This document shows positions 67-61,699 of a stretch of 64,000 bases of DNA, in pieces (within the stretch, counting starts at the first letter, position 1; every line of letters starts with the position of its first letter). The stretch covers positions 11,532,001 through 11,596,000 of the forward strand of contig OX597834.1 of the NCBI GenBank assembly GCA_951406725.2, written 5' to 3'. A model generated the notes under the pieces. It was not told the DNA's origin and ran no database searches. It saw only the letters and a list, made by a program, of their open reading frames with translations. The position numbers and the translations under genes were made by a program. The stretch is from Octopus vulgaris (lineage: Eukaryota).

Positions 67-117
67 TTTGTCAAAATATTTTCGTCGCTATAAGACCGCG
101 ACCTGTTCACTGACAAA
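67..117 (-). ncRNA. Minimal type I hammerhead-like motif with G3-C8 swapped core
   Basis: UUUGUCA-GUGAACA-G-GUCGC ggucuuaua GCGAC-GAAA-AUAUU-U-UGACAAA: 7-bp stem I, 5-bp stem II, palindromic AAUAUU stem III. Confidence 0.65.
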
Positions 118-204
118 AGTCCGTGCACACCTCCCACGCTGCAATTGTTTTCGTTTCAGCACACGATCTCAGTTCAAATCACTTGCTATGCAAGTACATC
201 TCCG

Positions 205-254
<50 letters not shown>

Positions 255-259
<5 letters not shown>

Positions 260-301
260 TACTGTTTGTGTCTGTATATGTGTGTAACTGCTAAATATCT
301 A

Positions 302-341
<40 letters not shown>

Positions 342-446
342 AAGTATAAATATACTGTTTGTGTCTGTATATGTGTGTAACTGCTAAATATCTATATATA
401 TATATGTATAAATATACTGTTTGTGTCTGTATATATGTGTAACTGC

Positions 447-499
<53 letters not shown>

Positions 500-554
500 A
501 AATATACTGTTTGTGTCTGTATATGTGTGTAACTGCTAAATATCTATCTATCTA

Positions 555-603
<49 letters not shown>

Positions 604-702
604 AGATACTGTTTGTGTCTGTATATGTGTGTAACTGCTAAATATCTATATATATATATATGTATAAATATACTGTTTGTGTCTGTATATGTGTGTAACT
701 GC

Positions 703-710
<8 letters not shown>
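255..710. repeat. Six copies of a ~45-bp unit (aaatatactgtttgtgtctgtatatgtgtgtaactgctaaatat) separated by variable (TA)n
   Basis: Near-identical units start at about 255, 348, 410, 500, 602 and 666. Confidence 0.9.
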
Positions 711-738
<28 letters not shown>

Positions 739-1344
739 TATGTGGGTGTGTGTATGGTTGTATATATACATATAATTATTATCTCCTGAGTGAGAGCGGG
801 GCCTAGAGCATTCTATACTTAATAGGATGGTAAATTTGTTTCGTCGTTTACGCTCACCTGATCTCCGTGTCATTAAGTTTCATGCAACGTATTCAACCAG
901 GCGTTGAAAATGTCTTGTGGACATTATTAGTATTACTGCGAGGAGCTCAAAAGACAATGATAAACCAACGGAATTTTAGCAGCCAGAAATTTATTCACTG
1001 AACTATTTTCATTCAGGTGAATGAAGCTTATTGAACTGTAGTATGATGCAAAGCATTGACTGCTAAATGAAAATATCGTGTAGAATATAAAATAATTTCT
1101 GTTTAATATTCTCAGAATTGTCAGAATAAAATTAGTTTATTTGAATGGAAACTTTCCTTTTTGGTGACTTTCTTTTTAGCTAACCCATTCATATATTATC
1201 AATAGACGCTGGCAGATTTTACGATAATTAATTTTAATATTGATAATTGAATAAATATTAGATTGTGGTTAAAAGTAGTAATTAAAAAGACTTATTATAT
1301 TTAAACGTTTAATCTTCGGGCAATATGATTACACATGCACGCAC

Positions 1345-1345
1345 G

Positions 1346-1380
<35 letters not shown>

Positions 1381-2425
1381 ACATGTATATATGCGTGTGT
1401 GTGTGTGTGTATTTATACATGTGTACAGGTGCGTGTAGATATAAATATCCATACACACACACACAAACACATATGTGTATGTATCCTTGCATGTAAATAT
1501 GTGTGTATATGCATATATTTGTACATACGTACATACATACACACACACGTAAATATATGTGTGTGAGCGTGTATATATATATATATATATATATGCATAC
1601 ATACATTATATATATATATGCATACATACATTATATATATACATACATACATATATATATACACATACATACATTATATATATATACACATACATACATT
1701 ATATATATATACATACATACATTATATATATATACATGCATACATTATATATATATATACATGCATACATACATTATATATATATACATACATACATTAT
1801 ATATATATACATACATACATACATTATATATATATATATATATACATACATTATATATATATACATACATACATTATATATATATATACATGCATACATA
1901 CAATATATATATATATATACATACATTATATATATACATGCATACATACATTATATATACATGCATACATACATTATATATATATATATACACATACATA
2001 CATTATATATATACATATATATAAATACATTATATATATATATATATACATACATTATACATATACATATATATACATACATACATTATATATATACATT
2101 ATACATATACATATATATACATACATACATTATATATATACATTATATATATACATATATATATAAATACATTATATATATATATACATATATACATACA
2201 TACATTATATATATACATATATATAAATACATTATATATATATATATATATATACATACATACATACATCATATATATATATATATATACATACATTATA
2301 TATATACATATATACTCACTCTTATACACCCAAAAACATAGTTGCACACGCACACACACACATGTATATACGTGTGCGTTTGTGTGTGTTTAGATATATA
2401 TATATATGTGTGTGTGTGTGTGTTT
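1345..2425. repeat. Compound TA/CA microsatellite and tacatacattata(ta)n minisatellite
   Basis: Directly visible; source of the spurious YIHT-rich ORFs. Confidence 0.9.
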
Positions 2426-3303
2426 GCCTCGTGTGTACGTGTACATATAAGAATAGAATCAATGAGGATTCACTAGCGAGTGTTAGTTTCAAAATGCTTA
2501 CATAGCAAATCATTGTCGTTTGTCCTTGGAATATTGTTTTCGCACAATTGGTAGAACAAAAACCGCGCTCAAATTCAATTATCAATCAATGAACGTCGCT
2601 AGTACCTTAAAATGATTGATTCAGGAGGTCAATTCCATTAAGTCTAAGCAAATAGATTGCGCTTAGTTAAGATGTAAACTGTTTTGGGTGATTTTTACGG
2701 CGTATTTCACTTGTTTCGTCAAAACCAAAGCGGATTTGTCATCAATTTATATAATGTTTTAAGTAATGTGTTATGCGAAAATAGATTCTTTCATTAGCAA
2801 AGTGATGTAACATATAACATTACGTAACGTAGGCCAGCTCTGTTCATGTAGCAGGAAAGCTGAATCAAAACCAAACTTTGCGCTACATGATAATTTATAT
2901 AATTCTTCATTGACCGAAAATCCTGTTAATCATAAAAATCAGTGAGACACTATGATTTTAATCGAAAGTTTGTTGGGAAATTTACTTGGAGTTTAGTTAA
3001 AAATCCGACTTTCAGAATTGCGTGATTAATTACACGAAATTGCTTCGGGAGATTAAAAAGAAATTACGCGTATATGGAGAAGATATTCGCTACAGTTTTA
3101 TAGATAATGCCGTCGGTAATGACAAGGCCTCGTGATTCGTGTTCGTTTATCTCCTCAAGTTATTTCAACTAATCAACCTTTGAGGTATCTCTATCGTCAC
3201 AGGATCACGGAAATTCAAGCATTTCGCCTCCATTCATTTCACTAGCGAACACGGCTATTTATCTATCCGTATACACACACGCTATCATACTCACAAAGAT
3301 GTA

Positions 3304-3351
<48 letters not shown>

Positions 3352-3896
3352 ATAGCATAACTTTAGACTATCATAAAATTATAAACTTACCACATACATA
3401 CGCATATGCGCGCACATACCAGACTCATACACACACAACTCACACGCAGACACTCACACAATCATATACATACACATATATACAGACAGAGAAACACACA
3501 TATGCATATAAATATATATACACTGTTAAAAGGAAAATAAAGAAATGGATATGTTTAAATTCAATTCAGTTTAATTAATTCTTAATCGCGTTTTACGTCG
3601 TACTGACAAGCTCAATAAGTGTCCGAAATAGTGCTATACATGGCCACTGGTTTAAGATCCTTGTCATGGAATATCGAAAAAATTAAAAGCTTTACATTGA
3701 AGTTGATGTATGCTCTCCACTCATTAATATAGATTCGTCATCATTAGCTGAAATAGACCTAGAGGCGAGTTCTCCCCTTAACTAGCAGTACCGCGTTCAC
3801 TTCCACTGGGTCGCGCCTTGGTCGAGTGTCCTCTACCAAAAACCCCGGAGCGACCAATCATTTTCAGTGAATTCGGCCGAAGTAAGTTGAAAGAAG

Positions 3897-4096
3897 TCCA
3901 TAGATCAGTAGCCACTACACACAATTTTTTTTCTCTCCTTGTTTTTTTGTTTTTTTTCTGTGTCCCTTTCTGTAGAAGAGCGAAGGCTCGAAACGTAAAA
4001 GACTTTTTCAATTTCCTGAGCGTTATACTAATACATCTGTTTGTTTTATACACCACCTGTCTTCGTCTTTTGTTTTTTTCGTAAAACTTCCCTTTA
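3897..4096 (+). mobile_element. Short Penelope/retrozyme-like element family P1 carrying a hammerhead motif (3966-4001)
   Basis: Homologous to 22896, 32748 and 61457; CUUU-CUGUAGA-A-GAGC gaag GCUC-GAAA-CG-UA-AAAG; ends in (TA)n. Confidence 0.7.
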
Positions 4097-6728
4097 TATA
4101 TATATATATATATACATACACATTACAGACATACATACTGTAATTCCTCGCCATATCTTAGTCAACTATCGCGGTTCACCTATCATGGTTTATGATTTAA
4201 GCTTACGTGGATTCCCCCGTGGTGTTGTTTAACATTTATAATGAAATAAATGTATACAAATTATAAAAGCATGCAGTGCACTTCTGTTTTTACTTCACGG
4301 ATTTTCAACTACTGCGGCGTTTTCGGAACTTAACTCCCGCGATAGTCGAGGGAATACTATATATATATATCTGTATCTCTGTGTGTGTGTGTGTGTATAT
4401 ATATGTGTGTGTGTATATGTATACGCGTATATATATATATATATACATACGTGTGTGTGTGTGTGCATAGTTATGGTTGTGTTTGCTCCACCTCCAGCAA
4501 CTGACAAAATGTGATGATATTTGTTTGCATCCCCGATAGAATATTTTAAAATATTAAATACTGAGATCGATTTGTTTGACTAAATCCTTCAAGGCGGTGC
4601 CCGGGCGTGGCAGCAGGATTGAAACAAACCGAAGGAAAGTAAAGAAACGACACATATTTATACCACGCACATACATATACCACCTCCGCAACAGATATAT
4701 AGATACATAGATAGATAGATTGATAGAGAGAAAGAAAGAGAAAGAGAGGGAGGGAGAGAGAGATACATGCCATGAGTATATTATGAAATGCTAAAGTTCG
4801 TATTAGAATTATAACTGCGTAATTTTAAAATTTACAAGAAAATATCGATTATCTCATGATTTTGGTCACTTATGCAAAATATAAGCTCGTGAGAGATACG
4901 CAATAGCTGTATTTGGTTTTTTTTTTTTTTGGCCGCGTATTCCTTGGTGAATATTTGGTATGCTCAAAGATATGAAATTAATTTGACATTGAACACGATG
5001 AATTTCAAAGACAGGCGTTATGTTACCGGGACTGTTTTATATTTGATAATTTAGACGAGAATTCGTAGTCTTTTGTGAAATATTCAAGGCTGGTTGAGGA
5101 AAGAATTTAATCCAAAGGAAATATATTAGCCACACAGGCAGTGTGAATACAGGAAAACAATATTTATTCCCACTTAAAAGCCGCGGTTCTGTTTGAACAG
5201 ACTATACTACGGTAGTTAACAAGAGAGAAACTCTTATTGGCACTTGTGTTAATAGCAATAGCGAAGAGATAGATCCCCTGCTATCTCCAGCGCCGAGACC
5301 TGCAGCTAACGTGATTTCGACCTTGTTTGGTCTTGTTAATGATGGACACTCGACTACTAGAGGCAGCACTGATTCATCTCTCCACCGGTGATATATAAAA
5401 TGGCAGTGCTAGAAAAGGAGCTGAGGTCGCGATTGAGAACAGGTTTTAGTGGCTGTAAAATGGATACTAATACAAGTGGATGACGGATTAGATTTAGCCA
5501 CAAACAATGGCGTAATCTTTCCGTTGACTCCTCACTACAAAATGCAATCACAAATTTGGAGTTCACTTGTGAAAACGGTGGAAAATGACCGCACAAGATT
5601 CATTACAATTCAATAACGCAAACAATACATTAGAGCAAATCGCAGACAAGACATAGGCGCACACACATGTACATATATACATAAGGTACGCAGAACATAT
5701 GAACATGTGTCTATGTATCTACTTATGTAAATGTATGTATATATATATATATACGCATGTGTGTGTATACGTTTGCATGAATATATGTGTGTATGTATTT
5801 ATATAAGTATGTATGTATCAGGGGTTGAACAGAAAGAACATAACAAGGAGAAAAAGTTAGCCGAAAGCAAACCAAACGGAAAACTAGACTAAAACTTAAC
5901 AGACGGGAAATATAGGCATTGACACGATTCACAGAATATTCGCAGCTAATTGTTTCTCGTCAGTCAATGACCAAAAATATCATAGTGGTTTCGCGCCATT
6001 TGCATGCATATAGATTTTGTAGCACTTCTGTTAATTAAATTCTCTTGCGAATATATATTCTATCCCCCAGTGTGCGCCTATCGTAGAAAATACTTAATTA
6101 CTTGTCGAAAGTTCAACGTCACGTGTTGAACATCTCGAACCGTACCAAGAAATGGCAGACCGAGTGATTTAACCAGACATTCCTGGCTTCTGTATTACTG
6201 TGTTATGAATGATGTGGCCGTAATATTCTCAGATAATTTATATTGCTAAGTAGATGTAAAAAATGTCAACTTCAATGAACAGTGATTCATGCGTTTCAAA
6301 GACTTAAAACTTGAGCGAACATAAACATGAATTTATGAGGAGTGTGTTCACATTTAATTTACTCTTAATATATCATATACTGTGTTAAAATCATTGCCAA
6401 TTATTTGTTCAAGTAATGAGAAAGCAAATAAAGACCTCTTACTTCAATTAGTTATATTATCAGCCAATAAGTAAGGCTCTACTGTGTGGAACGAGTTACT
6501 AGAAATATCAGTTAAATATACCTCAAACAAAACGTACTGACTATTGAGGATATACACGCTGGATATTGTGTATGTATGCAATATATATTATATACTTTGA
6601 TATTAAAGCTGTAAAAACATCGCAGACATATCTCAAAAGAACTGCCACTCAGAGTTTCGAGTTGCTCTGAGGCTAATCTGCATCAAAAATACTATTACGA
6701 CAACAAGAACAAAATCCAATGACACAGT

Positions 6729-7142
6729 ACTCTCTTTTACTCTTTTACTCTTTTACTTGTTTCAGTCATTTCACTGTGGCCATGCTGGAGCACCGCCTTT
6801 TAGTCGAGCAAATCGACCCCAGGACTTATTAAGCCCAGTATTTATTCTATCGGTCACTTTTACCGAACCGCTAGGTGTGTTTACGGGGACGTAAACACAC
6901 CAGCATCGGTTGTCAAGCAATGTTGGGGGGAAAAACACAGACACACAAACATATACACATATACATACATATACACATATAAGACGGGCTTCTTTCAGTT
7001 TCCGTCTACAAAATCCACACACAAGTCTTTGCTCGGCCCGAGGCTATAGTAGAAGACACCTGCCCAAGGTGCCACGCAGTGGGACTGAACCCGGAACCAT
7101 GTGGTTCGTAAGCAAGCTACTAACCACACAGCCACTCCTGCG
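6729..7142 (-). mobile_element. tRNA-derived SINE family A, near full length, internal microsatellite, (gagtaaaa)n tail
   Basis: Head gcaggagtggctgtgtggt...ggttcagtccc (A/B boxes); more than 15 copies or fragments in the window. Confidence 0.9.
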
Positions 7143-7269
7143 TCGTAAAGACATATAGCATTTAGATATGTCAATTAAGGTCGTTTAACGATTGAATCGA
7201 CAAAACCAAATGAACTGAAAGGTATATATATAAAAGACACGTGCGTTTATAATTACGGGAACAAAAACA

Positions 7270-7660
7270 ACCACTGCCGTTGTGTTACTACTACTACTAC
7301 TGCCGCTGATTCCTCTGCGGCTGCTGCTGCCACTACTATATTGCTACTTCAGATTCTGCCACTGCTGTCACAATAGCCGTTAATTCTGCTGCCGCCTTTG
7401 TCGCAGCCGTCGTCACCAACGCACTACGCACTACTACTTGTAGTAGTAGTAGTAGTACAACAACAACTACTTCTAATACTACTAATAATAATAACAACAA
7501 TAATACTGCTGCTGCTGCAGCCACTGCTCCGTTTGGTAACAGCAGCGCCACGACTACTAGCATGAACCTTACTACTACTACTACTATTACCACCACCACT
7601 ACTACTACCATTACCACCACCAACATCACCAATACCACCAACACTACTACTACTACTAGT
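7270..7660. repeat. Degenerate trinucleotide repeat (CTA/CTG/CCA/TAA)
   Basis: Visible triplet runs; the poly-V/L ORF is an artefact. Confidence 0.85.
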
Positions 7661-8266
7661 GTTCTGTATTTGTGATTGACCTGGTAAAAGTTTAGTTCAC
7701 CTCACTCGCGTTTGTATAATGTACCTTATCCAGATTCAGAGAATAAAAAAACAAAATCTTTTCAAGTGGGTAGTCTTGAGACATCATGGAATCGCCTCGT
7801 GATCGCTCGACATGTAGCAAGAAATAAGTAAATTTCTCGCTCATGACCTCCAGTTAGGGCCCTTTTTAGAAACCTGGACCCTGTATATAAGACGTTTTTA
7901 GGACCCTGTATGTAAGACTGCAGTGTGCTCTATAGTGGTTATTTATTTACAGTAAACCACAACATACCTAGATTAGAATAGGGTTAGCCCCGCGTAGCAC
8001 CCTTAGGACGAATGCCCAGTTTACTCATATTTTGAGAGGGCAGCAAACAACGAAAGAAAAATGAGAAACCCTGGATAATGTAGTTTAGATATGCCATTAT
8101 TTTACTATTTCATAGTTTTACTTGATTAGTCAATTAGAACTTTGTTCATGCTGCAGTAGACGTTTGGTTGTGCAGCCGCTTATATTGGTATCAGTATTTA
8201 TCTATGCTTGAGGAATTATTTCATCGATATCTATTTATCGAATGAGTTAGTTACAGTTTGATGTAA

Positions 8267-8498
8267 GGCGGTGAGCTGGCAGAATCGTTAGTACGCCGGG
8301 CGAAATGCTTAGCTGTATTTCGTCTGCCGTTACGTTCTGAGTTCAAATTCCGCCGAGGTCGACTTTGCCTTTTATCCTCTCGGGGTCGATAAATAAAGTA
8401 CCAGTTACGTACTGGGGTCGATGTAATCGACTTAATCCGTTTGTCTGTCCTTGTTTGTCCCCTCTCTGTGTTTAGCCCCTTGTGGGTAGTAAAGAAAT
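8267..8498 (+). mobile_element. SINE family B (ggcggtgagctggcagaa... head; gcctttcatcctttcggggtcgat core) flanked by 86-bp direct repeats
   Basis: Homologous to 17718, 24860, 38176, 38495 and 40347; flanks 8181-8266 and 8502-8587 are duplicated. Confidence 0.9.
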
Positions 8499-8714
8499 AT
8501 ATATATTGGTATCAGTATTTATTTATGCGTGAGGAATTATTTCATGGATATCTATTTATCGTATGAGTTAGTTACAGTTTGATGTAATAGGACGGAGTGA
8601 AGCATGATGGAAAGACAAGGTCAAAATTTATGGATGAAATCGAAAAGAAAAAAACCATAAAAGTGGAACGTGTTAGTTCATAGTTTTTTTCTGTATCATG
8701 ACTTAGCTGGAGCT

Positions 8715-9065
8715 ACACGAAGATGACGTCGACGGCATCAAGATCATGACGACGATCCTGACAACGGCTACGACTGCGAGAGCGTGGACAATGATGACGG
8801 CAATGTCGACGATGATGGTAACGTCGACGTTGACGGCAACCTTGACGATAACGGACGCAGCTACGACAGCCATAGGCAGTGGCTAAGACAGCGGTGATGA
8901 GAACGATGGCGCCGTCGACGACAAAGACGACGGACACAACGGTGGAGACGAAGGGACGACGTTTGCGGTACTGGAAACGACGTCGACCTCAGCGATGGCG
9001 TTAAGATGACGACGTCGACGTCAGCGATGGCGTTAAGATGACGACGTCGAAGGTGAAGACAATAC
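8715..9065. repeat. Degenerate (GAC)n CpG-rich tract with a 32-bp tandem duplication at ~8978-9050
   Basis: acgacgtcgac(c/g)tcagcgatggcgttaagatg present twice. Confidence 0.75.
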
Positions 9066-9481: not shown

Positions 9482-9532
9482 TGTATTTGAATGAAACGAA
9501 GAGTTAATGGCAATTTTTTGCTGTTTACTTAC

Positions 9533-9634
9533 TTTACGTAGTCCAGATTCCTTTAGCTGCAGTATATCCAAGGAAAAGTCCATTCGTCGACCGTTCGTTA
9601 ACTTTATATTTCCTGACAGACCACGCATCTGAAC
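9533..9634 (-). CDS. Next iGluR (kainate-like) exon: VQMRGLSGNIKLTNGRRMDFSLDILQLKESGLRK
   Basis: 102 nt, phase 0/0, acceptor ttcaatttag|GTT, donor AAA|gtaagt; matches the GL(T/S)G.I.F..G.R.DF.LD.I.LKE.GL.K end of the kainate ATD and is collinear with the two upstream exons. Confidence 0.93.
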
Positions 9635-10226
9635 CTAAATTGAACACAAAAAAAACATAATACATTAAAACATGTCTCAAGAAGACAAGTAACTATAGAA
9701 TCATTTTCCCAACTTAATCTTTTAGTCAAGTAATTGAATTTTGTTATAAAATAAACTGAAGGCAAATGAGTCATAGTAAAAATGAATACTAATAATGTTT
9801 TGTTTTCGTAAGTAGGATGAATCATGTGGTAGGGTAACGGATGTAACGTTCTTAATTTTCTTCGTGAAACTCAATACTGGACCATATCCGTGTCAGAAGT
9901 AATACAGCATTTCTTAAACTTATGTACTTTGATTATACACAATATCCTTAATGTGGCGAGAGAACAAAATTAGTAATATCTATACATTTCGAGTTATATA
10001 TTTATCTTTCTCAGCCCTGTACGTATGTTCCATTCCCTTTCTTCAGACATTAAACCTAGGAACACTGATCTGTACATGTATAATCTAACTTGAGCACCAA
10101 ACTCCCGAAAGTCGACACACTCGTCTCAATGGCGCAGGAATATGCTCCTTGAGCCATGTAACGTAAGTTAATTCTATTGATGCTAATATCATGATTATAA
10201 CACGTATATTTACAATTATTTAAGGT

Positions 10227-10592
10227 GGAGGCGCAATGGCCCAGTGGTTAGGGCAGCGGACTCACGCTCATAGGATCGCGGTTTCGATTCCCAGACCGGG
10301 CGTTGTGAGTGTTTATTGAGCGAAAACACCTAAACCTCCACGATCTCCGGCAGGGGATGGAGGTGATCCCTGCTGTACTCTTTCACCACAACTTTCTCTC
10401 ACTCTTACTTCCTGTTTCTGTTGTCACTTCCTTGTCACTCTCTGTGTCACGCTGAATATCCCCGAGAACTACGTTAAGGGTGCACGTGTATGTGGAGTGC
10501 TCAGCCACTTACACGTTAATTTCACGAGCAGGCTGTTCCGTTGATTCGGATCAACCGGAACCCTCGTCGTCGTAACCGACGGAGTGCTTCCA
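10227..10592 (+). mobile_element. tRNA(Arg)-like SINE family C, tail type 1 (possibly octopus OR-type SINE)
   Basis: Head ggaggcgcaatggcccagtggttagggcagcggac...gtttcgattccc; tail shared with 46140-46457. Confidence 0.85.
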
Positions 10593-12600: not shown

Positions 12601-13308
12601 ACTTGTATTATTAGTTGGAGTAATTGACTCTAATTTTTTTGTTTGCTTTCTATCTGTTTCTTTTGTTTTTGGTTTGTGTTTTTTACTCTCTTTTGGTGTA
12701 TTGCAATTATTTTCAACTTGAATTTGTTTATATGAAAGGTCAGTCGTTAGAAGTAGCCAATTAAACAAACCATCAAAGCAGTCATTATCATTTCATTATA
12801 TTTTGTTTTAGTTTATTTTTTACTTGAAATAATTTTTTCAGACAAAATCCCAACCTTGTCCTTCACGTTCACAGAAAAGAAAATACAACGCACACACATA
12901 CAACACGATATCCATTTTAAATTAAATTCGAGGAAAATATAAAAGAGAGCTTCGCCATTTCAAAATGGTTTCTCTACCATTCATGGATTTTAGCCAATTA
13001 TTAACCCTTAAGAGTTCAAACGAAACATTAACCAAGCTAATTTTACAAACGCCTCTGATATGAGCCAAACAGAAAGAGCTTCATGGATTATAGCCATCAT
13101 TCGATATATCTGAATCCTTACATTTAACAATAATGAAAGTACTTTGATATGAGAATCGAAGCATATTCAGAAAGACTTATATTTGATTTTATTGAGATAA
13201 ATTAACTAAACAAAGTGAAGCAATATATATTGTATTCGTGTTTCATTCGTTCTATTCTAGCTGGCTTTAACCAAAATAATGTAATGCGATGATACAGCTA
13301 CCTATATA

Positions 13309-14135: not shown

Positions 14136-14350
14136 TATATATATAAATATATACTTACACAAATATATATATATATATATGTATGCATGCATGTATTTAT
14201 ACACACACGCATATATGTATAAATATATATATATATATGCCTGTATTAATACACACACGCATATATGTATAAATATATACTTACAAATATATATATATAC
14301 ACACAATGGACATATGAATGAAATTCTGAAGAAACAATGTATTTACTTAC

Positions 14351-14503
14351 CGTGTTAAGGTAGGTATACAACATAGCGCCAGTTATCCATTTAGTATTTG
14401 AGTCACAAGTCAGGTTTGTTAAAGGAATTGTTGATTGTTTTGCCATATCTTCAAGACCTTTGGCGAAGAGGTAGACGGCGTCAAACATAAGGGCAGCTTC
14501 GTA
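14351..14503 (-). CDS. Next iGluR (kainate-like) exon: YEAALMFDAVYLFAKGLEDMAKQSTIPLTNLTCDSNTKWITGAMLYTYLNT
   Basis: 153 nt, phase 0/0, acceptor cccttgtcatcgtag|TAC, donor ACG|gtaagt; the AALM(F/Y)DAV...L.C....W..G motif is characteristic of the kainate receptor ATD. Confidence 0.93.
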
Positions 14504-22895: not shown

Positions 22896-23070
22896 ACGCC
22901 ATGATAGATCGTTAGCTCATACACGCATTTTTTTCTCACCTCGTTTCTCTTCTCTGTATCTTTCTGACGAAGAGCGTAGGCTCGAAACTTAAAAGACTTT
23001 TTCTATTCCTGAGCGCTATACTAATACATTTGTATGTTTGTACTCCACCTGCCTTCGTCTTTTGCTTGTT
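22896..23070 (+). mobile_element. Family P1 element with hammerhead motif (22959-22996), canonical CUGACGA core
   Basis: UCUUU-CUGACGA-A-GAGC guag GCUC-GAAA-CU-UA-AAAGA (stem III G changed to U); ends in long (TA)n. Confidence 0.75.
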
Positions 23071-31748: not shown

Positions 31749-32132
31749 TCCCTAGATAAGTTGTCTCTGTACTGCCTTAGTTTTTTCGCGGTTCTTCTCT
31801 TATGCATATGTGGTTTGTTCTTGATGAATATGTTCGAGATATTTCTCGACATATCAAATAATTAGTAGCACTTAAAGAAATGTATTGAGTCCTTAAAATA
31901 AATGATACCATTCTCTCACTAGATGGAGTAGAAATCATGCTGAGTTTTCTATAATATGGAACAGTACCCCAGAACTTATTCTTCGCAAGCCTTGTACTTA
32001 TTCTAGCGTTCCCTTTTGCCGGATGCAACCAGACCAACATCCGTTGTCAAGCGATGGTTGGGGGATAAAAACACAGACACACAAACATATACACACATAT
32101 ATACATACATACATACACACAGTGGTAGAGTA

Positions 32133-32272
32133 ATATGCTTTATTTAAAGCAGCAGAAGATTCAACAAAACCTCTTACTCTGAGTTTCCCGTTGCAGCAAA
32201 AACTGTCCGATGAACGGAAACGGGAAACTCAGAGTAACAGGTTTTGTTGAATTTTCTGCTGCTTTAAATAAA

Positions 32273-32750: not shown

Positions 32751-32930
32751 CGGGAAGCTTTATGAAAATAAACAAAACGCGAAGGCAGGTGGAATACAAA
32801 CAAACAATTGTATTAGTATGGCGCTCAGGAATATAAATAAAACAAGTCTTTTACGTTTCGAGCCTACGCTCTTCAACAGAAAGGTACACAGAAAAGAAAC
32901 ACGGAAAGAAACAAGGAGAGAAAAAAATAT
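32748..32930 (-). mobile_element. Family P1 element with hammerhead motif (32848-32883)
   Basis: CUUU-CUGUUGA-A-GAGC guag GCUC-GAAA-CG-UA-AAAG; flanked by (TA)n. Confidence 0.75.
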
Positions 32931-36655: not shown

Positions 36656-36703
36656 CATTTCAGTACCGGTTTCCGTCTTTTTGAGACCTTTTCAACTGTA
36701 ACG
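36656..36703 (-). ncRNA. Minimal type I hammerhead-like motif with U3-A8 core
   Basis: CGUUACAG-UUGAAAA-G-GUCU caaaa AGAC-G-GAAA-CCGG-UA-CUGAAAUG; palindromic ACCGGU stem III, GUA site. Confidence 0.65.
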
Positions 36704-37355: not shown

Positions 37356-37447
37356 TAATGGCTGATGATTGCTCAACATTTTAAAACTGTTGTAATACTT
37401 ACAACATTTAATAAAATGATGTAGCGTGAAACGATCGTACCAAATTA
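37356..37447 (+). ncRNA. Type I hammerhead ribozyme motif, canonical core with long stem II
   Basis: UAAUGG-CUGAUGA-[~59-nt hairpin incl. UGUUGUAA uac UUACAACA]-GAAA-CGAUCG-UA-CCAAAUUA; predicted cut after A37439. Confidence 0.75.
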
Positions 37448-44061: not shown

Positions 44062-44108
44062 AAAATTTGTTACTCAGAGTTTCACATTATCGTTCGTCAG
44101 TCAATTTT
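44062..44108 (-). ncRNA. Family P2 hammerhead motif (canonical core, damaged stem I)
   Basis: AAAAUUGA-CUGACGA-ACG auaa UGU-GAAA-CUC U GAG-UA-ACAAAUUUU; inverted partner at 44613-44658. Confidence 0.65.
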
Positions 44109-44280
44109 GTTTATATATCGAAATAAGGTGATTAAAATCACAATAAACAAAAAGTACGATCGTACTGCATTATCTCTGGATATCCTTGTTCCTTATTTTG
44201 ATTATTATCACCTTATTTTTTTGAAATTTATGGATAATACCGTACTGAATAATGATGCCTTAACTTAAGTGTGTGTGTGT

Positions 44281-44612: not shown

Positions 44613-44658
44613 CCGACGAACGGTAGCGTGAAACTCTGAGTAACAGTTTTTGTGATAT
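44613..44658 (+). ncRNA. Family P2 hammerhead fragment (5' stem I strand missing)
   Basis: CCGACGA-ACG guag CGU-GAAA-CUC U GAG-UA-ACAGUUUU. Confidence 0.55.
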
Positions 44659-46457: not shown

Positions 46458-48906
46458 ATTACGAATGGGGCCATAAAATATTCACCTAATTGTAAATGAC
46501 TATTAGAACATCGCCATTCGTTTGCAGCAGCATGAACTTAATATTAACCATAGAATATGACCCTGTTGTAGTGTTCTCCGCCTCCTGTGTTTAGGCATTA
46601 ACCCTTTCCCTCGCTTTTGTTTATTTCTGCCCACTTCATATACTTCCTTTTCCTCGGCCTTCATCAAGAGAATGAGTGGCGACGGGGAAATGAAAAGAGA
46701 GGGCGGGAATTTTACCGGTATAAATCAATTGAGCGATTGTAATAAAATAGAAAAATTATCCAGGCGGAATTTCTAAGGAAAAAGAAGAATGAAGGCTTAA
46801 TATTAATATTATACAGTTACATAAGGCGGTGAGCTGGGAAAATTTTCATCACGCCGACAAAACGCCCAGCGGTATTTCATTTGTCGTTACGTCTGATTTT
46901 AAATGCCATAGAGGTCGACATTTTCTTTCATCATTCCGGAGTCGGTCAAATAAGTACCAGCTGTGCGCTGGTTTCGAAATAATCGACTTTAACCATCTCT
47001 CAAAATTGTTAGCCTTCTTTCAAAATTTGAACTCAATATTACTATTTTACGTTTGTCTTTATGTTTTAAGTTCGAATTTTATCAAGGTCGACTTTGCTTT
47101 TCAGCCTTTCGGATCGAGAGAAGAATTAGCTGGGGAACATTGGGGTCGATGTAATCTACTTAATTCCTACTCGAAATTGTTGCACTGTGCCAAAATTGGA
47201 AACCGATAGAATATCGTTAAATATTTACTGTTTACATTTTTACGGGATATTTCTACGAAGGCTTTTGTTGGGGAGCAACAGGTAATCATAAGATGCTATT
47301 AAATAGAACTAAAGATTTTACAGGGATTTATTATTTTAATGGAGATTGGGGATATGTAAAGTAATTTCCAACAGAAACACCAATTTCTAAATAAATATTA
47401 CGATGTTCATTTTCCAATAATTTACTGTTTTCTTCCTTTATTTTATTTGCTGTAATGCAATCTTAATGACATAGAAAATATGGGGCTAGTTTATTTAAAG
47501 CTTTGCTATTTAATATAAGCATTAATATATTTTAAACGAAAAAAATATGGCAAAAAAATCGTTGTATCGACGTAAACATAACCAGTTATCCAACGAAATG
47601 TTTTCGTTCGTTGAGATGTCTTTACAAACGGCGATTATCGTTTCGTTATTATCTCGTTCAATTAGTTTGTTATTGGTTGTACAGATAATGTATAGTATTA
47701 CAAAGTTATTTATTTCAATATATTTCTTGAAGGATATGCACCGAATGACATGGAAATATTTAGCCTATTTTCTTAATATTTTAATACATGAATCTACTTG
47801 AACACTGCCGATATTAAACGTAACTTGTCTCGTGAAAATATTTGAATAAGAAAACATTGGTATCAGAACAAAAATGTTTGCAATACTATGATTTTAGTTG
47901 TATGCTTCAAATATCTTTGTAAGAATATAATCATTGTATATACATACATACACTCACACATATGTATACATCACACACACATATATATACGATGAGAGAT
48001 TGATATAAAAAGATCACATAAGCAGAGCAAATATATTTACTCACTATCATACTTGAGCGTACACATAGAGAGATAAATATGCATATAAGCACAGACACAT
48101 ACACACATAGTTAATTATTGCTTTTTAAATATTTGCTACCGTGTCACATCGCATGAGTTTATAAATAATATCAATAAGGACAGACAACCTCCAATTTTGT
48201 TTGTCTTACATGGTCTCTCAACACAGCATTTTACATATTGTTATTTATAACTTCATGTGATGTGCTTCAAGAGTCAATATTACAAAGAAAGAATTATTTC
48301 GCGTTCTCTCGAAAGTTATTGATACTTATTGATATCGAAAATATTATATATGTATAAGAGCGTGTGAATGAGAGAGAGAGAGACACACACAGACAGAAAG
48401 CGAGGGAGAGAAAGAGAGAGTTTGTGTGTGTGTGCATGCAACCATAGCCCCACTTGCGTATTTGCGTAATTGTCTGTCTGTATGTGTCTCTTCTCATGCT
48501 CGCCTTTCCTTTGCAGAGATCCTTATAAAAATAAACCTTAAAAGAACCTCACAAACACATTGGGACGCACACAATACTCAGGTACGAATGTATATTTAGA
48601 CAAACAAATATTCTCGCTAACACAACTCCCACTGGCTTATTTCTTTTTCATGAACGCTCATCATGAACGTAGGTTAATGAGACGGTTGTGATCTATAAAC
48701 AGTCTTGAGAAGGAACCAGAAAGAGACGTGTGAACATGCAATGCGTATGTGCACAGTGGATTCATAAAACGGAAGACAAGAATAAAACTAGTTATATGGT
48801 GGTCTGCAGGCCACATCTGACACTACTATGATGCAGGCTTGCTGCATTTTTTCTCGTTCTTTAAATCTTTCTCTCTCTCTTGCACGAAGATATAAGTGTT
48901 ACTTAC

Positions 48907-49074
48907 TGACATGGATCCACTTTTGTTGAGAAGCTGTAAATCGGTTTGGATTTCGTATATCTCCATGTCCCGCATTATTTTGTTCGTGTAGCTGTTATCC
49001 GGGTCCACAATTCGAAAGCCGGTCAAATTCACAAAGTTGTGTTTGAAGTCCTCCATATCAATTGTTTCAACGTC
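48907..49074 (-). CDS. Internal exon of ionotropic glutamate receptor (kainate-like), amino-terminal domain: DVETIDMEDFKHNFVNLTGFRIVDPDNSYTNKIMRDMEIYEIQTDLQLLNKSGSMS
   Basis: 168 nt, phase 0/0, acceptor ttcttccag|GAC, donor TCA|gtaagt; the D..T.D.EDF.....N.TGFR.VD motif matches the kainate/AMPA receptor ATD. Confidence 0.92.
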
Positions 49075-49883: not shown

Positions 49884-49923
49884 GTGTCACTGAAGAGGTC
49901 ACAGATGTGTGACGAAAGATTTG
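49884..49923 (+). ncRNA. Hammerhead-like motif, canonical CUGAAGA core, degenerate 3' stem I
   Basis: GUGUCA-CUGAAGA-G-GUCACA gaug UGUGAC-GAAA-GAUUU; same architecture as the 67-117 motif. Confidence 0.55.
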
Positions 49924-53281: not shown

Positions 53282-53357
<76 letters not shown>

Positions 53358-53609: not shown

Positions 53610-53760
53610 GCTTCTTTTTTCTATATTTCTGACGAAGAGCTCCGCTCGAAACGTTAAATCCCCCTGCTTTCTTTCGTTTACTGAACGTCTGATAACACTA
53701 TACTTGTTCCACGTCCTCGCGTTGTTGTGTTTTCTCTTTGTTCATGTATGAATTAACTAT
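53610..53760 (+). mobile_element. Family P1b element with intact hammerhead motif (53625-53659)
   Basis: AUUU-CUGACGA-A-GAGC ucc GCUC-GAAA-CG-UU-AAAU; stem I covaries relative to P1 (CUUU/AAAG). Confidence 0.75.
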
Positions 53761-53907: not shown

Positions 53908-53948
<41 letters not shown>

Positions 53949-54764: not shown

Positions 54765-55165
54765 TTTATTTTATCTAGTTTCAGCTCACGAGCTGTGGCC
54801 ATGCTGGGGCATCGCCATTCGGTGTTGCTACATTATTTTCCTTCACGAATGCTTTTTAGCAATTGCCATTTGGTGCATGAGAGAGATCAATGCAGCTGCC
54901 CTCATCTGCACCCCCTGCCGTGAAGTTGGTTCATCTGGGACACCTGACAGGAAGAGATCTAGTTTTATTTTAAAGACATCTGCATCCAACCCATGCAGGT
55001 CTCTCAGGTCCTTCAGGAGGATATTGAAGAGCTGTGGGCCTCGGAAGCCCAGGCTATCACAGTATCTTGTCCTACATCTTGATGGCAAATTTGGAGTCCT
55101 TAGCACTATGAAGTGGCGCCCAGTTCTGGCATTTGTGTAACTCTAGATGTCAAAGTTTGGGACAT
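54765..55165 (-). mobile_element. 5'-truncated LINE 3' end (ORF2 C-terminus plus 3' UTR; CR1/L2-group-like)
   Basis: RYCDSLGFRGPQLFNIL.KDLR...DVFK.KLD.FLS.VPDEP C-terminal motif; UTR ends gccccagcatggccacagctcgtgagctgaaactagataaaa. Confidence 0.8.
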
Positions 55166-55577
55166 TACTCTCTTTACTTGTTTCAGTCATTTGACTGCGG
55201 CTGTGCTGGAGCACCGCCTTTTTATCGAGCAACTCGACCCCAGGACTTATTCTTTGTAAGCTTAGTACTTATTCTATCGGACTCTTTTGCCGAACCGCAA
55301 AGTGACGGGGACATAAACGCACCGGCATCAGTTGTCAAGCGGGCTGGGGGGACAAACACAGACATACAAACATACACGCACACACACACACACATATATA
55401 TATATATACATATATACGACAGGCTTCTTTCAGTTTCCGTCTACCAATCCACTCACAACGCTTTGGTTAGCCCGAGGCTATAGTAGAAGACACTTGCCCA
55501 AGGTGCCACGCAGTGGGACTGAACCCGGAACCATGTGGTTGGTAAACAAGCTACTTACCACACAGCCACTCCTGCGC
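55166..55577 (-). mobile_element. SINE family A, full length
   Basis: Homology. Confidence 0.9.
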
Positions 55578-57440: not shown

Positions 57441-58107
57441 GACAGTTTACAGAAATATATTTCTTTTAAAACACGTTATATAATCAGAAAAAAATGTATG
57501 CCTCTAATATAAGGGTTTCTTGGTGTTATTTCAGATTAATAAAGCGATGAGACGTCAGAATTATTAAAGAGCCGGAAAAAATTATAAGCAACATTTCTAC
57601 CGGCACTTTGGGCTCTTATTTCAAAAAGTGACATCTTCAAATTTAATCAACTTTAATCACTTGTGTTAATGACATAAATACCATTCGAGCACTGAGGTGT
57701 GTGTATGCGTGTGTGTGTGTGTGTGTGTGTGTGTTTGTGTACGATATGTGTAGGCTCAGCGATGGTTCATTGGTTAATAAGTTTGCAAATACGGTATTAG
57801 GGATTCGATCCAACACCATAACAGCAATCGTCAATTGTCTTCCACCTTGAGTACGAGTTGACTAATGCCCTGTCAGAAGATTTTCTACACGCATATTACG
57901 TACATATGCGCCCGCTCATGTGTGTATGTACGCGTCTGTCAGTCCCTGGGTGTGCGCATGAAGAGTGTGTGTGCCATTAGACAAGATGTCAATTGAAAGT
58001 TGATCTATAAATCAAAACGTCTAATAAATTTGATTGTAGTCTTAGCATGGCCTCTTCAATTTAGTAAATATTCTATATTCACTTTTGAAAATCCATATCA
58101 ACGTCCA

Positions 58108-58160
<53 letters not shown>

Positions 58161-58237
58161 AACTATACGTACAGGTAAACATACAGTCATATATGTAAGT
58201 ATACAAATATATTTGTTCATATGTGTGTGTGTGTGTG

Positions 58238-58275
<38 letters not shown>

Positions 58276-58743
58276 CATATGCAGACATACATACACAAAC
58301 ATACACACACACATATATAGCTGCGTGTTTTCGAGTGTGCGCATATAAGTGATTACGTACGAAAATGAAATGTATATTTACACAAATATATCCCCGTATG
58401 CATATTGGTGTTTATACGCAAGCAGAATCACCTACACAAATATATTTATGCATATATACACATGATTTTGAATGCATACATACAGAGATGCATTTATATA
58501 TATGTATATATAATCATATATACATTTATTAAATATATACATATATATACAACTATATATGTGTATATATATAATTATATTTGTGCTTTATATATATAAT
58601 TATATATGTGTTTATATATGTGTTTATATAATTATATATATATGTATATATATATTATATATGTTTATATACTTATATATAATTATATATGTTTATATAC
58701 ATATATATAATTATATATGTTTATATATATGTATGTATATGTT

Positions 58744-58798
<55 letters not shown>

Positions 58799-59601
58799 CA
58801 TGTGTAAAACGTGTGCTTTGGGGACTGGGGGAAAAATATGAAGCATAGCAAGTTAATTAGAATATAGTGACATTATTTCTGTTGTAGTTGATTAGAATTT
58901 TTCAACAATAATCTGGGGACGCATGATGATGCGAACACTTCAAATTAGAACATATTATTAGCGTCATGAAATATACAAAAGAAAATATGCAGACGAATTA
59001 AAGAGACAAAGCGGGATAAAATATATTAGAAATTATGAATGTAACAGGAGGAAATCTAATTTTCTTAGCTCAGCAGATTCGTTCTACACATATATCATAT
59101 GGAACTTCTCTTCCTCGTGTACACACTCATACACACAGATGAGTTATATATTAAATGTACATGCTTATGTAAATACGTTTTTATATAATGTAATATCCTG
59201 TATACATACATATTTATGTGTGTATGAGTATATATATATATATATATAATACATATACATATATACATACATATACGTATATACATATACGTATATACAT
59301 ACACGTATATATACATACACGTATATATACATACACGTATATACATATACATATATGTACATATATATATATATATACGTATATACATATACGTATATAT
59401 ATATATATACATACATATACGTATATATATATACATATACGTATATATATATACATATATATATATATATACGTATATATATATACATATATATATATAC
59501 ATATACGTATATATTTATACATATATACATATATATACATATACGTATATATTTATACATATATACATATATATACATATACGTATATATTTATACATAT
59601 A

Positions 59602-59633
<32 letters not shown>

Positions 59634-59641
59634 CATATATA

Positions 59642-59687
<46 letters not shown>

Positions 59688-59695
59688 CATATATA

Positions 59696-59741
<46 letters not shown>

Positions 59742-60063
59742 GATTGTGCAAATCTTGCTTCGTGCCTAAGTTCTACATATTTCTAATTAGCAACTTTATA
59801 GATTATGTTTCCGTCCTTGAAATTTTTTTTCGAGTATTGTTTACAGTTACCTGCAATCTAAATTGCATTCCCTGCGTGATCATCACATTTTCTTTACCTT
59901 CTTTTTTATTGCTAATGCAAATTTACCTTGACTATAATATATTTGTGATTCATATCTATGATTGTAATTTTTTTACGCTGTCCCTAGGATATGAAATTAA
60001 TATTTGATCTGAAAATCGCGGTGAATTTATATTTATTTAACATGTTAGAAACCATTTGGCCAC

Positions 60064-60120
<57 letters not shown>

Positions 60121-60689
60121 GTGTGTGTGTGTGTTTGTGTTTGTTTCCCTCCCCCAACATCGCTTGGCAACCGATGCTGGTGTGTTTACGTCCCCGTAAC
60201 TTAGCGGTTCGGCTAAAGGGACCGATAGAATAAGTACCAGGCTTACAAAGAATAAGTCCTGGAGTCGATTTGCTCGAATAAAAGGCGGTGTTCCAGCATG
60301 GCCACAGTCAAATGACTGAAACAAGTAAAAGAGTATGTAGTAATAACGAATTATAACTTCCACATATTGTCACTGACTTCTGTATATTTCCTCGGGACAA
60401 TATTTCTATTCCTGTTCTCTTTGATCGTACGATGAAGAAATATTTAGGCTTTATAACCCTATTACGAGTATAAATTTAACTATGGAAGGAAGATAGGTTT
60501 ATTCATATACATTGCAACAATGTTCACTGTTTGTCTTAGGGATATCCTGTCGGTTGACATGATGCTGAATCGGACGGGAAATTGGATCCGTTAAAATTCA
60601 TATACTCAACCAATGGATCCAGTGTTAACTTGAAACTTGGAGTGACCGGATAAGGATATCACGAGCACCATTAATACTATTGAAGAACA

Positions 60690-61110
60690 TAGGTGCAGAC
60701 ATTGCTGTGTGGTAAGAAGCCAGCTTCCCAATCGCATGGTTTTTGAGTTCAGTCCCACTGCATACACCTTGGCTAAGTGTCTTCTATTATAGCCTGGGGC
60801 CGACCAAAGCGTTGTGAATGGATTTGGTAGAAGGAAACTGAAGGAATACCGTCGTATATGTATGTATATATGTATGTATATTTATGTGTGTGTGTTTATG
60901 CTTGTGGTTGTCTTCCCATCGTCTCTTGACAACCGATGTCGGTGTGCTTACGCCTCCGTAACTTAGCGTTTCGGCAAATGTGACGGATAGAATAAATACT
61001 AAGCGTACAAAGAATAATTTCTAGGGGCGATTTCTTCGACTAACTGTCTTTTAGACGGTGCCCCAGCATGTCCGGGGTCAAATGACTGAAACAATTAAAA
61101 GAATAAAAGA
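60690..61110 (+). mobile_element. SINE family A (older copy)
   Basis: Full head and tail; inverted relative to the 61209 copy. Confidence 0.85.
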
Positions 61111-61208
61111 ATATATATGGTTATAAATGCAAAGTTTCTAAACTTGAAATTATAGACATACGGTTTTCAAACAAACATTTTCTGAATATTTCGTGACACT
61201 AAAGGTAT

Positions 61209-61421
61209 TACTCTTTACTCTTTTACTTGTTTCAGTCATTTGACTGCGGCCATGCTGGAGCACCGCCTTTAGTCGAGGAAATCGACCCCAGGACTTATTC
61301 TTTGTATGCCAGTACTTATTCTATCGGGCTCTTTTGCCGAACCGCTAAGTTGCGGCGACGTAAACACACCAGCATCGGTTGTCAAGCGATCATGGGGGGA
61401 CAAACACAGACACACACACAC

Positions 61422-61456
<35 letters not shown>

Positions 61457-61667
61457 GATCGCCATGCTGATTCGCTAGCCGCTGCACGCATTTTTTTCTC
61501 TCCTTGTTTCTTTCTGTGTTTCTTTTCTGTGTATCTTTCTGTTGAAGAGCGTAGGCTCGAAACGTTAAAGACTTATTTTATTTATATTCCTGAGCGCCAT
61601 ACTAATACATTTGTTTGTTTGTACTCCACCTGCCTTCGTCTTTTGTTTATTTTCATAAAGTTTCCCG

Positions 61668-61699
<32 letters not shown>

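What the first reader, a model, noticed from the sequence alone, without database searches (positions are those of the whole stretch)
67..61670. At least 10 minimal hammerhead-ribozyme motifs in several short (TA)n-associated element families within a glutamate receptor locus
Seen: motifs with stem I / CUGANGA-type core / stem II / GAAA / self-complementary stem III / UH at 67-117(-), 3966-4001(+), 22959-22996(+), 32197-32246(+), 32848-32883(-), 36656-36703(-), 37356-37447(+), 44062-44108(-), 44613-44658(+), 49884-49923(+), 53625-53659(+) and 61534-61571(+). The stems differ in sequence between families but keep pairing. Stem III is usually a loop-less palindrome or near-palindrome (ACGU, AAUAUU, ACCGGU, ACGAUCGU, ACUC-N-GAGU). 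Established: Penelope-like retroelements and non-LTR retrozymes carry minimal type I hammerheads with palindromic stem III that cleave as dimers. Inference: these are multiple non-autonomous Penelope/retrozyme-like families at roughly one motif per 5 kb, an unannotated catalytic-RNA mobilome in this genome.
Basis: partly seen in the sequence, partly recalled or inferred. Interest (0 to 1): 0.9.

Follow-up and report, generated by a model that had tools for sequence, protein, structure and literature searches.

The report
Octopus retroelement hammerheads with swapped cores
The twelve motifs are hammerhead-ribozyme folds at the ends of Penelope-like jumping genes that fill this genome, likely an octopus, at about one copy per 10 kb (a known kind of element), but several abundant, apparently still-jumping families carry altered catalytic cores, including a swapped G3:C8 base pair that I found in print only as a laboratory mutant, and these RNAs are predicted, not shown, to cut themselves slowly.

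Summary
Observation confirmed, interpretation partly. All 12 motifs are present, exceed shuffled controls and lie in introns of a kainate-like glutamate receptor gene. They are not retrozymes. They are pseudo-LTR hammerheads of Penelope-like elements (PLEs): Neptune-like, Hydra-like and one unassigned clade. Families A, B, C and D (9 of 12 sites) were traced to RT + GIY-YIG ORFs; long-ORF copies of A and C are 98-99.9% identical. PLE hammerheads and (TA)n targeting are published, including in Octopus bimaculoides. G3:C8 (94 of 100 unselected copies; about 5,800 exact matches), U6 (98 of 100; 17,941), U3:A8, and C4 in two clades. Three Watson-Crick identities of the 3:8 tertiary pair occur in one 64-kb window. 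Genome-wide about 3x10^5 copies, mostly decayed (extrapolated from 400 kb). Copies span the cleavage site and start just upstream, likely at the capped transcript start, so their templates were uncleaved. No cleavage or expression data. I found no natural G3:C8 or U6 hammerhead in print, but five key papers were unavailable. The scan has noted PLE hammerheads in other genomes, none here.

The parts
67..117 (-). Family C hammerhead, G3:C8 core, stems I/II/III 7/7, 5/5, 6/6; short copy of an autonomous PLE of unassigned clade; same strand as the iGluR pre-mRNA
3966..4001 (+). Family A (Neptune-like) hammerhead, U6 core, stems intact
22959..22996 (+). Family A copy with A6 but a broken stem III palindrome (2 of 4)
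32123..32194 (-).
32197..32246 (+). Family B (Hydra-like) hammerhead, C4 core, 2-bp stem II with tetraloop, 9-nt near-palindrome
32848..32883 (-). Family A hammerhead, U6 core, stems intact; same strand as the pre-mRNA
36656..36703 (-). Family D (Neptune-like ORF remnants upstream elsewhere) hammerhead, U3:A8 core; same strand as the pre-mRNA
37356..37447 (+). Family E hammerhead, canonical core, stem II extended by a 51-nt insert; Hydra-type architecture, ORF partner not found
44062..44108 (-). Family B hammerhead, canonical core, one stem I mismatch; same strand as the pre-mRNA
44156..44202 (+).
44613..44658 (+). Family B hammerhead, C4 core, clipped in stem I
49884..49923 (+). Decayed hammerhead of an older relative of family C with canonical C3:G8 core
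53625..53659 (+). Family F hammerhead (pLTR homologous to family A), canonical core, stems intact; many other F copies carry C4
61457..61668 (+). Whole short family A copy between two TA runs, from the shared 5' start to the sharp 3' end; hammerhead with U6 core at 61534-61571
48886..49074 (-). iGluR exon (about residues 250-306 of P0123)
14345..14503 (-). iGluR exon (residues 306-358 of P0123)
9530..9634 (-). iGluR exon (residues 357-391 of P0123)

Best explanation
The motifs are the pseudo-LTR hammerheads of several Penelope-like retrotransposon families, left in the introns as short copies at TA repeats, likely made by the parent elements' own reverse transcriptase and nuclease from the uncleaved, probably capped 5' leader of the element's RNA; in the parent elements the fold is predicted to be a slow, dimer- or protein-assisted self-cleaving ribozyme whose core has drifted among tolerated variants. 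Shown: linkage to RT + GIY-YIG ORFs (A, B, C, D), tandem and inverted PLE architecture, sharp 3' ends at TA runs, 5' ends clustered 40-110 nt upstream of the cleavage site, and family-fixed cores C3:G8, U3:A8, G3:C8, U6 and C4. Inferred: that the 5' cluster is the transcription start; that reverse transcription starts inside the leader just past the pLTR (as shown in vitro for an Anolis PLE); that selection acts on the hammerhead only in master elements while genomic copies decay; and that the variant cores still cleave. The intronic copies are passive by-products.
For: Family A: 10 loci with 1,049-1,214-codon open frames, 99.0-99.9% identical, unit about 4.5 kb, one triple tandem; 18 of 18 hammerheads in them carry U6; RVT_1 hit. 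Family C: 8 loci with frames up to 1,025 codons, 98.0-99.5% identical; 14 of 14 hammerheads G3:C8; GIY-YIG hit. Family B: RT + GIY-YIG without CCHH upstream, hammerhead architecture like published Hydra elements. Family D: Neptune-like remnants upstream. With the core left free in the pattern, U6 in 98 of the first 100 of 13,947 matches; G3 in 100 and C8 in 94 of the first 100 of 2,678. Stems keep pairing with two-sided changes: 96% and 90% of cells paired, slid controls 21-42%; the 3:8 pair is G:C in 14 and C:G in 4 of 21 rows. In 17 family A rows, columns with a shared second letter: core 0 of 11, stems 2 of 18, free positions 3 of 7, flanks 15 of 56 (Fisher p = 0.025). The hammerheads of A and C lie outside the ORF. 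5' ends within 2 nt of the cleavage site: 1 of 177 copies. Nine of 9 family C copies ending at the putative start carry an extra G. In an Anolis PLE the engineered C3G/G8C double mutant partly restores cleavage, and uncleaved RNA is the template (PMC11167929).
Against: No cleavage or expression data. Changes at A6 are known to be damaging (natural A6C cleaves at less than 0.1 per min, PMC3088659), so the U6 motif may be dead. Stem I of family A is predicted to form in only about a quarter of the leader ensemble, and free homodimer folding prefers other pairings to the active dimer. The conservation test rests on few master lineages and related rows. Most extra-G copies sit at fold-back junctions where the G may come from the other arm, and the 5' cluster also resembles a 3' splice site in families B and C. 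The 5'-end count under-detects very short post-cleavage copies. Families E and F were not linked directly to an ORF end.
Confidence: 0.78

Rival explanations
1. Same elements, but the variant motifs (above all U6, perhaps C4 and G3:C8) are catalytically dead or nearly so. The fold is kept as a binding site for the PLE protein or as part of the internal promoter, and families that lost cleavage spread freely because cleavage is not needed for insertion.
For: Hammerhead mutants insert normally in vitro and no RNA ends map to the cleavage site in Anolis. A6 changes give low activity. Copies span the cleavage site. Naiad PLEs thrive without canonical hammerheads. Other short flank motifs are also conserved across families A, F and G.
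Against: The 3:8 positions pair only in the catalytically competent tertiary fold (established knowledge), and they covary three ways. Two core changes falling on 3 and 8 and restoring a pair has a chance of about 0.006 under a simple neutral model. Position 7, free in hammerheads, takes all four letters in U6 copies while the rest of the core is fixed.
Confidence: 0.3
2. The short elements are independent non-autonomous, retrozyme-like families that replicate through self-cleaved circular RNAs and borrow PLE enzymes.
For: Most copies are only 90-250 nt, share a 5' start and lack coding sequence. Animal retrozymes derive from PLE pLTRs and leave solo monomers (bioRxiv 10.64898/2026.07.22.740005). 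No ORF end was linked to E or F.
Against: Short copies match the pLTRs of ORF-bearing elements (up to 100% over about 100 nt). No head-to-tail arrays: 4 direct vs 38 inverted neighbours among 435 copies, and no hammerhead in the window's tandem repeats. Copies are not bounded by cleavage sites. The motifs are minimal, not the canonical loop-loop type of retrozymes.
Confidence: 0.08
3. Some intronic copies have been co-opted to regulate the glutamate receptor pre-mRNA by co-transcriptional cleavage.
For: Four copies lie on the pre-mRNA strand, three of them with intact family-state folds. Density is a little above average.
Against: Copies are young or decaying like others. Strand ratio 4 of 12 is unremarkable (p = 0.19). 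100 kb of neighbouring DNA, largely within the same gene, holds only 6 copies. Single minimal motifs did not cleave in vitro.
Confidence: 0.03

Closest known systems
Minimal type I hammerheads in PLE pseudo-LTRs (Cervera and de la Pena 2014, PMC4209133)
   Same: Short stem I, extra nucleotide after A9, palindromic stem III region, thousands of dispersed single copies, inverted pairs, U3:A8 variant.
   Different: None of the 56 representatives in its Fig. S3 has G3:C8, U6 or C4. Counts there are about 2,000-9,000 descriptor hits per genome; here 37,791 exact matches to four patterns and about 3x10^5 related copies (different methods, not directly comparable).
Neptune-clade PLEs (Craig et al. 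2021, PMC8557442)
   Same: Family A: single ORF, RT motifs closely resembling the Neptune1_Ap rows seen in the supplement (by eye), CX2-5CxxC linker, GIY-YIG with CCHH, tandem pLTRs, TA targeting.
   Different: Family A carries a U6 core in all long-ORF copies examined; its sister subfamily and families F and G keep A6.
Hydra-clade PLEs, including Hydra-1 of Octopus bimaculoides (PMC8557442, Files S1 and S2)
   Same: Family B: GIY-YIG without CCHH, RT thumb like the Hydra rows, TA targeting; families B and E have the Hydra-type hammerhead with a longer palindrome and a bulge before G12.
   Different: B has a 2-3-bp stem II without G10.1-C11.1, C4 subfamilies, and a linker lacking one cysteine of CxCX5C; E has a stem II extended by about 50 nt. 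Published Hydra cores seen were all canonical.
Engineered C3G/G8C hammerhead double mutant (as described in PMC11167929, citing Martick and Scott 2006)
   Same: Same swap of the 3:8 tertiary pair, which partly restores cleavage.
   Different: Here it is the natural, fixed state of a young autonomous family.
Non-LTR retrozymes of animals (PMC7229834; bioRxiv 10.64898/2026.07.22.740005)
   Same: Short, non-coding, type I hammerhead, related to PLE pLTRs.
   Different: Retrozymes are head-to-tail arrays of 150-450-nt units with canonical hammerheads and circular RNAs; these are single or inverted copies of pLTR leaders.

Membership tests
PLE minimal hammerhead | Type I topology with stems I and II | tested here: met
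   Full pairing of both stems at 9 of 12 sites; stem I imperfect at 44062, 44613 and 49884
PLE minimal hammerhead | Palindromic 15.1-16.1 segment in place of stem III | tested here: met
   Perfect or one-nt-interrupted palindrome at 10 of 12; broken at 22959, wobble-only at 49884
PLE minimal hammerhead | Located in the pLTR of an RT + GIY-YIG element | tested here: met
   Shown for families A, B, C, D; EN remnant upstream for a sister of the 49884 family; not shown for E, F
PLE minimal hammerhead | Canonical core C3 U4 G5 A6 G8 A9 (or published U3:A8) | tested here: not met
   Met at 6 of 12 sites (5 canonical, 1 U3:A8); 3 U6, 2 C4, 1 G3:C8. Hence 'variant'
PLE minimal hammerhead | Self-cleavage as dimer or with protein help | not testable with these tools
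   No assay; no raw RNA reads available
Neptune PLE (family A) | Single ORF with RT and C-terminal GIY-YIG containing CCHH | tested here: met
Neptune PLE (family A) | CX2-5CxxC linker | tested here: met
Neptune PLE (family A) | RT phylogeny with reference Neptunes | not tested
   Only compared by eye with supplement rows; no tree built
Hydra PLE (family B) | GIY-YIG without CCHH; TA targeting | tested here: met
Hydra PLE (family B) | CxCX5C linker | tested here: inconclusive
   Second cysteine replaced in all 4 ORF-bearing loci read
Hydra PLE (family B) | DKT and RWK motifs | not tested
   N-terminal part of the ORF not recovered (longest frame 507 aa)
Nematis or Neptune PLE (family C) | CX2-5CxxC linker and CCHH | tested here: met
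Nematis or Neptune PLE (family C) | RT similarity to clade references | tested here: inconclusive
   Only 21-25% identity to family A; unlike the three Nematis rows seen; 161 mostly unnamed homologues. Clade left unassigned
Non-LTR retrozyme | Head-to-tail arrays with a hammerhead in each unit | tested here: not met
   4 direct vs 38 inverted close neighbours among 435 copies; no arrays
Non-LTR retrozyme | Canonical type I hammerhead with loop-loop contact | tested here: not met
   Minimal architecture; no Rfam match at gathering thresholds
Non-LTR retrozyme | Circular RNA intermediate | not testable with these tools
   No read data

The most novel reading that the evidence does not exclude
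This genome holds the first natural, actively spreading G3:C8 and U6 hammerheads, part of an allelic series (C3:G8, U3:A8, G3:C8, C4, U6) in which PLEs have repeatedly tuned their ribozyme down. Sitting 40-110 nt behind the cap, the hammerhead would act as a dimer-dependent decapping brake on the element's own mRNA, and the most successful families would be those that weakened the brake without losing it.
Probability: 0.22. Interest if true: 0.75.

Novelty: new variant of a known kind. Interest (0 to 1): 0.5.

Why it matters
Why PLEs keep a hammerhead is open: it is conserved, yet dispensable for insertion in vitro. A natural G3:C8 swap fixed in a young family is genetic evidence that the catalytic tertiary fold is under selection in vivo. 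The U6 and C4 families test how much activity is enough. Matched sister families with canonical and variant cores in one genome give a ready-made series for cleavage and transposition assays. Standard descriptors that fix C3, U4, A6 and G8 would miss most hammerheads here, so published counts in animals may be too low. The cap-like G and shared 5' starts, if right, explain the abundant solo pLTR copies as run-off copies of the leader.

Tried and rejected
Rfam: at E <= 1 the 150 listed of 348 matches were microRNA-type models on simple repeats (198 not shown); at gathering thresholds 0 matches in 93.6 kb including four long loci. The repeat finder was swamped by microsatellites. The pattern had a gap one base too long and returned only 35 insertion variants; it was repeated correctly. 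The family E pattern had too short a gap for the long stem II and returned only 21 matches, so it is no copy count. An alternative register for family A, with a U3.G8 core shifted by three bases, was rejected because it depends on position 7, which varies freely. Single A3/C8 and U3/A8 copies among relatives of family C (L304, L303) may be decay and were not counted as families. My parses of 36656 and 37356 were off by one or two bases and were corrected. Sequencing runs: no RNA holder listed; no reads were laid, so expression, cleavage ends and the cores of related species remain open. Free cofolding did not favour the active dimer; it ignores tertiary contacts and is uninformative. No RT tree against reference clades was built. 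Earlier scan findings: none in this genome or by sequence; the 8 shown of 358 by words concern other genomes and did not change my reading. Not held, so unread: Lunse 2017, Seehafer 2011, Hammann 2012, Przybilski 2007, Arkhipova 2017.


Full report
OBSERVATION. A type I descriptor allowing two core mismatches gave 6 hits against a mean of 0.17 in 30 local dinucleotide shuffles; 5 hits are listed sites and one (12782-12845) is an AT-rich chance hit. A second descriptor, allowing any Watson-Crick 3:8 pair, gave 2 vs 0.05 in the window and 8 vs 0.4 in 400 kb of genome sample. Parsing by coordinate shows 5 canonical cores, 3 with U at position 6, 2 with C at position 4, 1 with U3:A8 and 1 with G3:C8. 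Three sites have imperfect stem I and two have a damaged stem III. The window lies wholly inside a kainate-like iGluR gene on the minus strand: three exons are in the window and the next exons lie beyond both ends. Four motifs are on the pre-mRNA strand and eight are opposite (p = 0.19).

HOST AND ABUNDANCE. G000 has 2.80 Gb in 227 contigs. The best homologue of the family C protein is labelled Octopus vulgaris by its source (54% identity), so the host is likely an octopus. Exact pattern counts, each with 0 reversed-pattern controls: 17,941 (family A, U6), 4,721 (the same frame with A6, mostly family F), 6,515 (family C type; 89 of the first 100 rows G3:C8, read by eye, hence about 5,800) and 8,614 (family B). 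Forty 10-kb stretches taken at round coordinates, spread over contigs C1-C30, held 43 copies overlapping a hammerhead core of these families or their sisters. That extrapolates to 3.0x10^5 (2.2-4.1x10^5) per genome, most of them decayed. The window (12 in 64 kb) is mildly above this; 100 kb of its neighbours held 6.

WHAT THE FAMILIES ARE. Family A (4 sites): a protein search had 14,168 candidates. I fetched 10 of the 150 scored, chosen for long frames. They have open frames of 1,049-1,214 codons stop to stop, 99.0-99.9% identity, pLTRs about 4.5 kb apart and one triple tandem. The protein has RT, a CX2-5CxxC linker and a GIY-YIG domain with CCHH, and by eye resembles the Neptune1_Ap rows of Craig et al.. 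Family C (site 67): 7,695 candidates; 8 fetched for long frames, up to 1,025 codons, 98.0-99.5% identical, with tandem and inverted structures and a GIY-YIG hit. Its clade is unassigned. Family B (3 sites): RT and GIY-YIG without CCHH upstream in 4 of 6 loci fetched for it, Hydra-like. Family D (36656): Neptune-like remnants upstream in one extended locus. The 49884 type has a sister with an EN remnant related to family C. F is tied to A by pLTR homology and E to Hydra elements by architecture only; neither was linked to an ORF end. Among 435 copies held, neighbours within 600 nt were inverted 38 times and direct 4 times, with no arrays: PLE architecture, not retrozyme.

THE CORES ARE FAMILY STATES. 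With the core left as N in the pattern, 98 of the first 100 of 13,947 family A matches have U6 and none has A6 (rows from one contig, read by eye). In the random sample plus window it is 13 of 14, and 18 of 18 in the long-ORF loci. An older sister subfamily and families F and G keep A6, so U6 is likely derived. Position 7 takes all four letters in U6 copies. For family C, G3 is in 100 and C8 in 94 of the first 100 of 2,678 matches, 9 of 9 in the random sample plus window and 14 of 14 in long loci. Older relatives with homologous stems have C3:G8. Family D has U3:A8 in 29 of 29 hits, from loci chosen by likeness to the window copy. C4 occurs in 6 of 9 F and 4 of 8 B copies of the random sample plus window, in two unrelated clades. 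Named-structure counts: 96% of cells paired with 15 two-sided changes, all at one stem I pair, in 35 Neptune-type rows; 90% with 14 two-sided changes at 7 pairs in 21 family C-type rows, the 3:8 pair being G:C 14, C:G 4, other 3. Slid controls pair at 21-42%. These rows are related, so cells are not events. Within 17 family A rows, shared second letters occur in 0 of 11 core, 2 of 18 stem, 3 of 7 free and 15 of 56 flank columns (p = 0.025). The hammerheads of A and C are upstream of the ORF, so protein coding does not explain this.

HOW THE SHORT COPIES ARISE. 3' ends are sharp and abut TA runs; B and C have two 3' ends, like the optional PLE tail. 5' ends do not gather at the cleavage site: 1 of 177 copies not selected by a core pattern starts within 2 nt of it. 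They cluster about 108 (A), 56 (C) and 44 (B) nt upstream. The count needed 25 nt downstream and E <= 1e-6, so very short pieces are under-counted. In family C, 9 of 9 copies that end at one particular position carry a non-templated G (2e-7 by base frequency), as expected if RT copies a cap. Most of these are fold-back junctions where the other arm could supply the G, and the site also resembles a 3' splice acceptor, though no shared upstream exon was seen. I read the short elements as cDNA copies of the capped, uncleaved leader, primed at a nicked TA repeat and started just past the pLTR, as shown in vitro for an Anolis PLE. This step is inference.

MECHANISM OF THE RIBOZYME. Stems I and II of B and C are predicted to form in the leader; stem I of A is weak. 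Stem III can form only between two molecules or two pLTRs. The 3:8 positions pair in the active tertiary fold (established knowledge), so three Watson-Crick identities at this pair argue for selection on that fold in master elements. Published data predict low activity for each variant: G3:C8 partial, A6 changes below 0.1 per min, U4C reduced but viable in a viroid. I therefore expect slow, assisted cleavage that leaves most RNA intact as template. The U6 family may have lost cleavage altogether (rival 1). A role as a dimer-dependent decapping brake is speculation from the position behind the putative cap.

WHAT IS KNOWN. PLE minimal hammerheads, their palindromes, dispersed single copies and U3:A8 are in PMC4209133 (read: main text parts 1-2 of 4, supplement parts 1-2 of 3). 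Hydra and Neptune features, TA targeting and a hammerhead in Hydra-1 of O. bimaculoides are in PMC8557442 (passages, section 11, supplement passages and part 2). Also seen: PMC11167929 (parts 1-2 of 4), PMC3088659 (section 8, passages), bioRxiv 10.64898/2026.07.22.740005 (part 1 of 5, passages; supplements closed), and passages of PMC7229834, PMC6765202, PMC3884650, PMC6155905, PMC6962438, PMC8967140 and PMC13282606. The last reports 31 recently active PLE families in O. vulgaris and has no mention of ribozymes in its main text. Searches for natural G3:C8 or U6 cores and for octopus hammerheads found none; none of the 56 Cervera representatives or the Hydra rows of File S2 has them. Figure 5 of PMC3088659 was seen only as its legend. 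Lunse 2017 (a large survey of PLE hammerhead variants, recalled), Seehafer 2011, Hammann 2012, Przybilski 2007 and Arkhipova 2017 were not held, and any of them or their supplements could contain such variants. I put the chance that natural G3:C8 is unreported at about 0.65.

VERDICT. The new part is a natural series of core variants fixed in large, young PLE families, with hints of how solo copies form. New variant of a known kind; interest 0.5.

Noticed in passing
L146:1556-2590: An intronless dCMP deaminase reading frame (about 180 codons, Pfam PF00383) with UTRs is joined head-to-head to the 5' start of a family C short copy, and the unit ends in a TA run. It looks like a host mRNA retrocopied in trans by the PLE.
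   Followed up: partly
window:6760-7142, 8252-8506, 10225-10416 and many other places: At least four abundant SINE-like families fill the introns, often nested at TA runs beside the PLE copies. The label SINE is recalled, not tested.
   Followed up: no
window:37356-37447; L072:2276-2370; L150:1720-1810: Family E has a stem II extended by about 50 nt of imperfect hairpin; about 5 copies per 400 kb.
   Followed up: partly
L213:1-47, L219:8320-8369, L240:2185-2227, L246:9790-9920: Four further hammerhead types in the random sample, two with U3:A8 cores; their parent elements were not sought.
   Followed up: no
alignment A1, columns 68-90: Two short motifs 20-45 nt downstream of the cleavage site are conserved across families A, F and G while spacers vary; possible promoter or protein-binding elements.
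   Followed up: no
L205:4722-4745: The family C leader opens with a 7-codon reading frame whose stop codon overlaps core positions 4-6; probably incidental.
   Followed up: no
L003, L030, L067, L278: GIY-YIG remnants 31-35% identical to the family B nuclease without a recognised hammerhead downstream; possibly Naiad or other PLE families.
   Followed up: partly
window:207-734 and 62655-63003: A 90-nt TA-rich tandem array next to the site 67 element and a 35-nt, 10-copy, 98%-identical minisatellite; neither holds a hammerhead.
   Followed up: no
window:13367-13669 and 54846-55142 (minus strand): Fragments that look like a mariner-type transposase and a LINE RT C-terminus (labels from recall, no Pfam support).
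   Followed up: no
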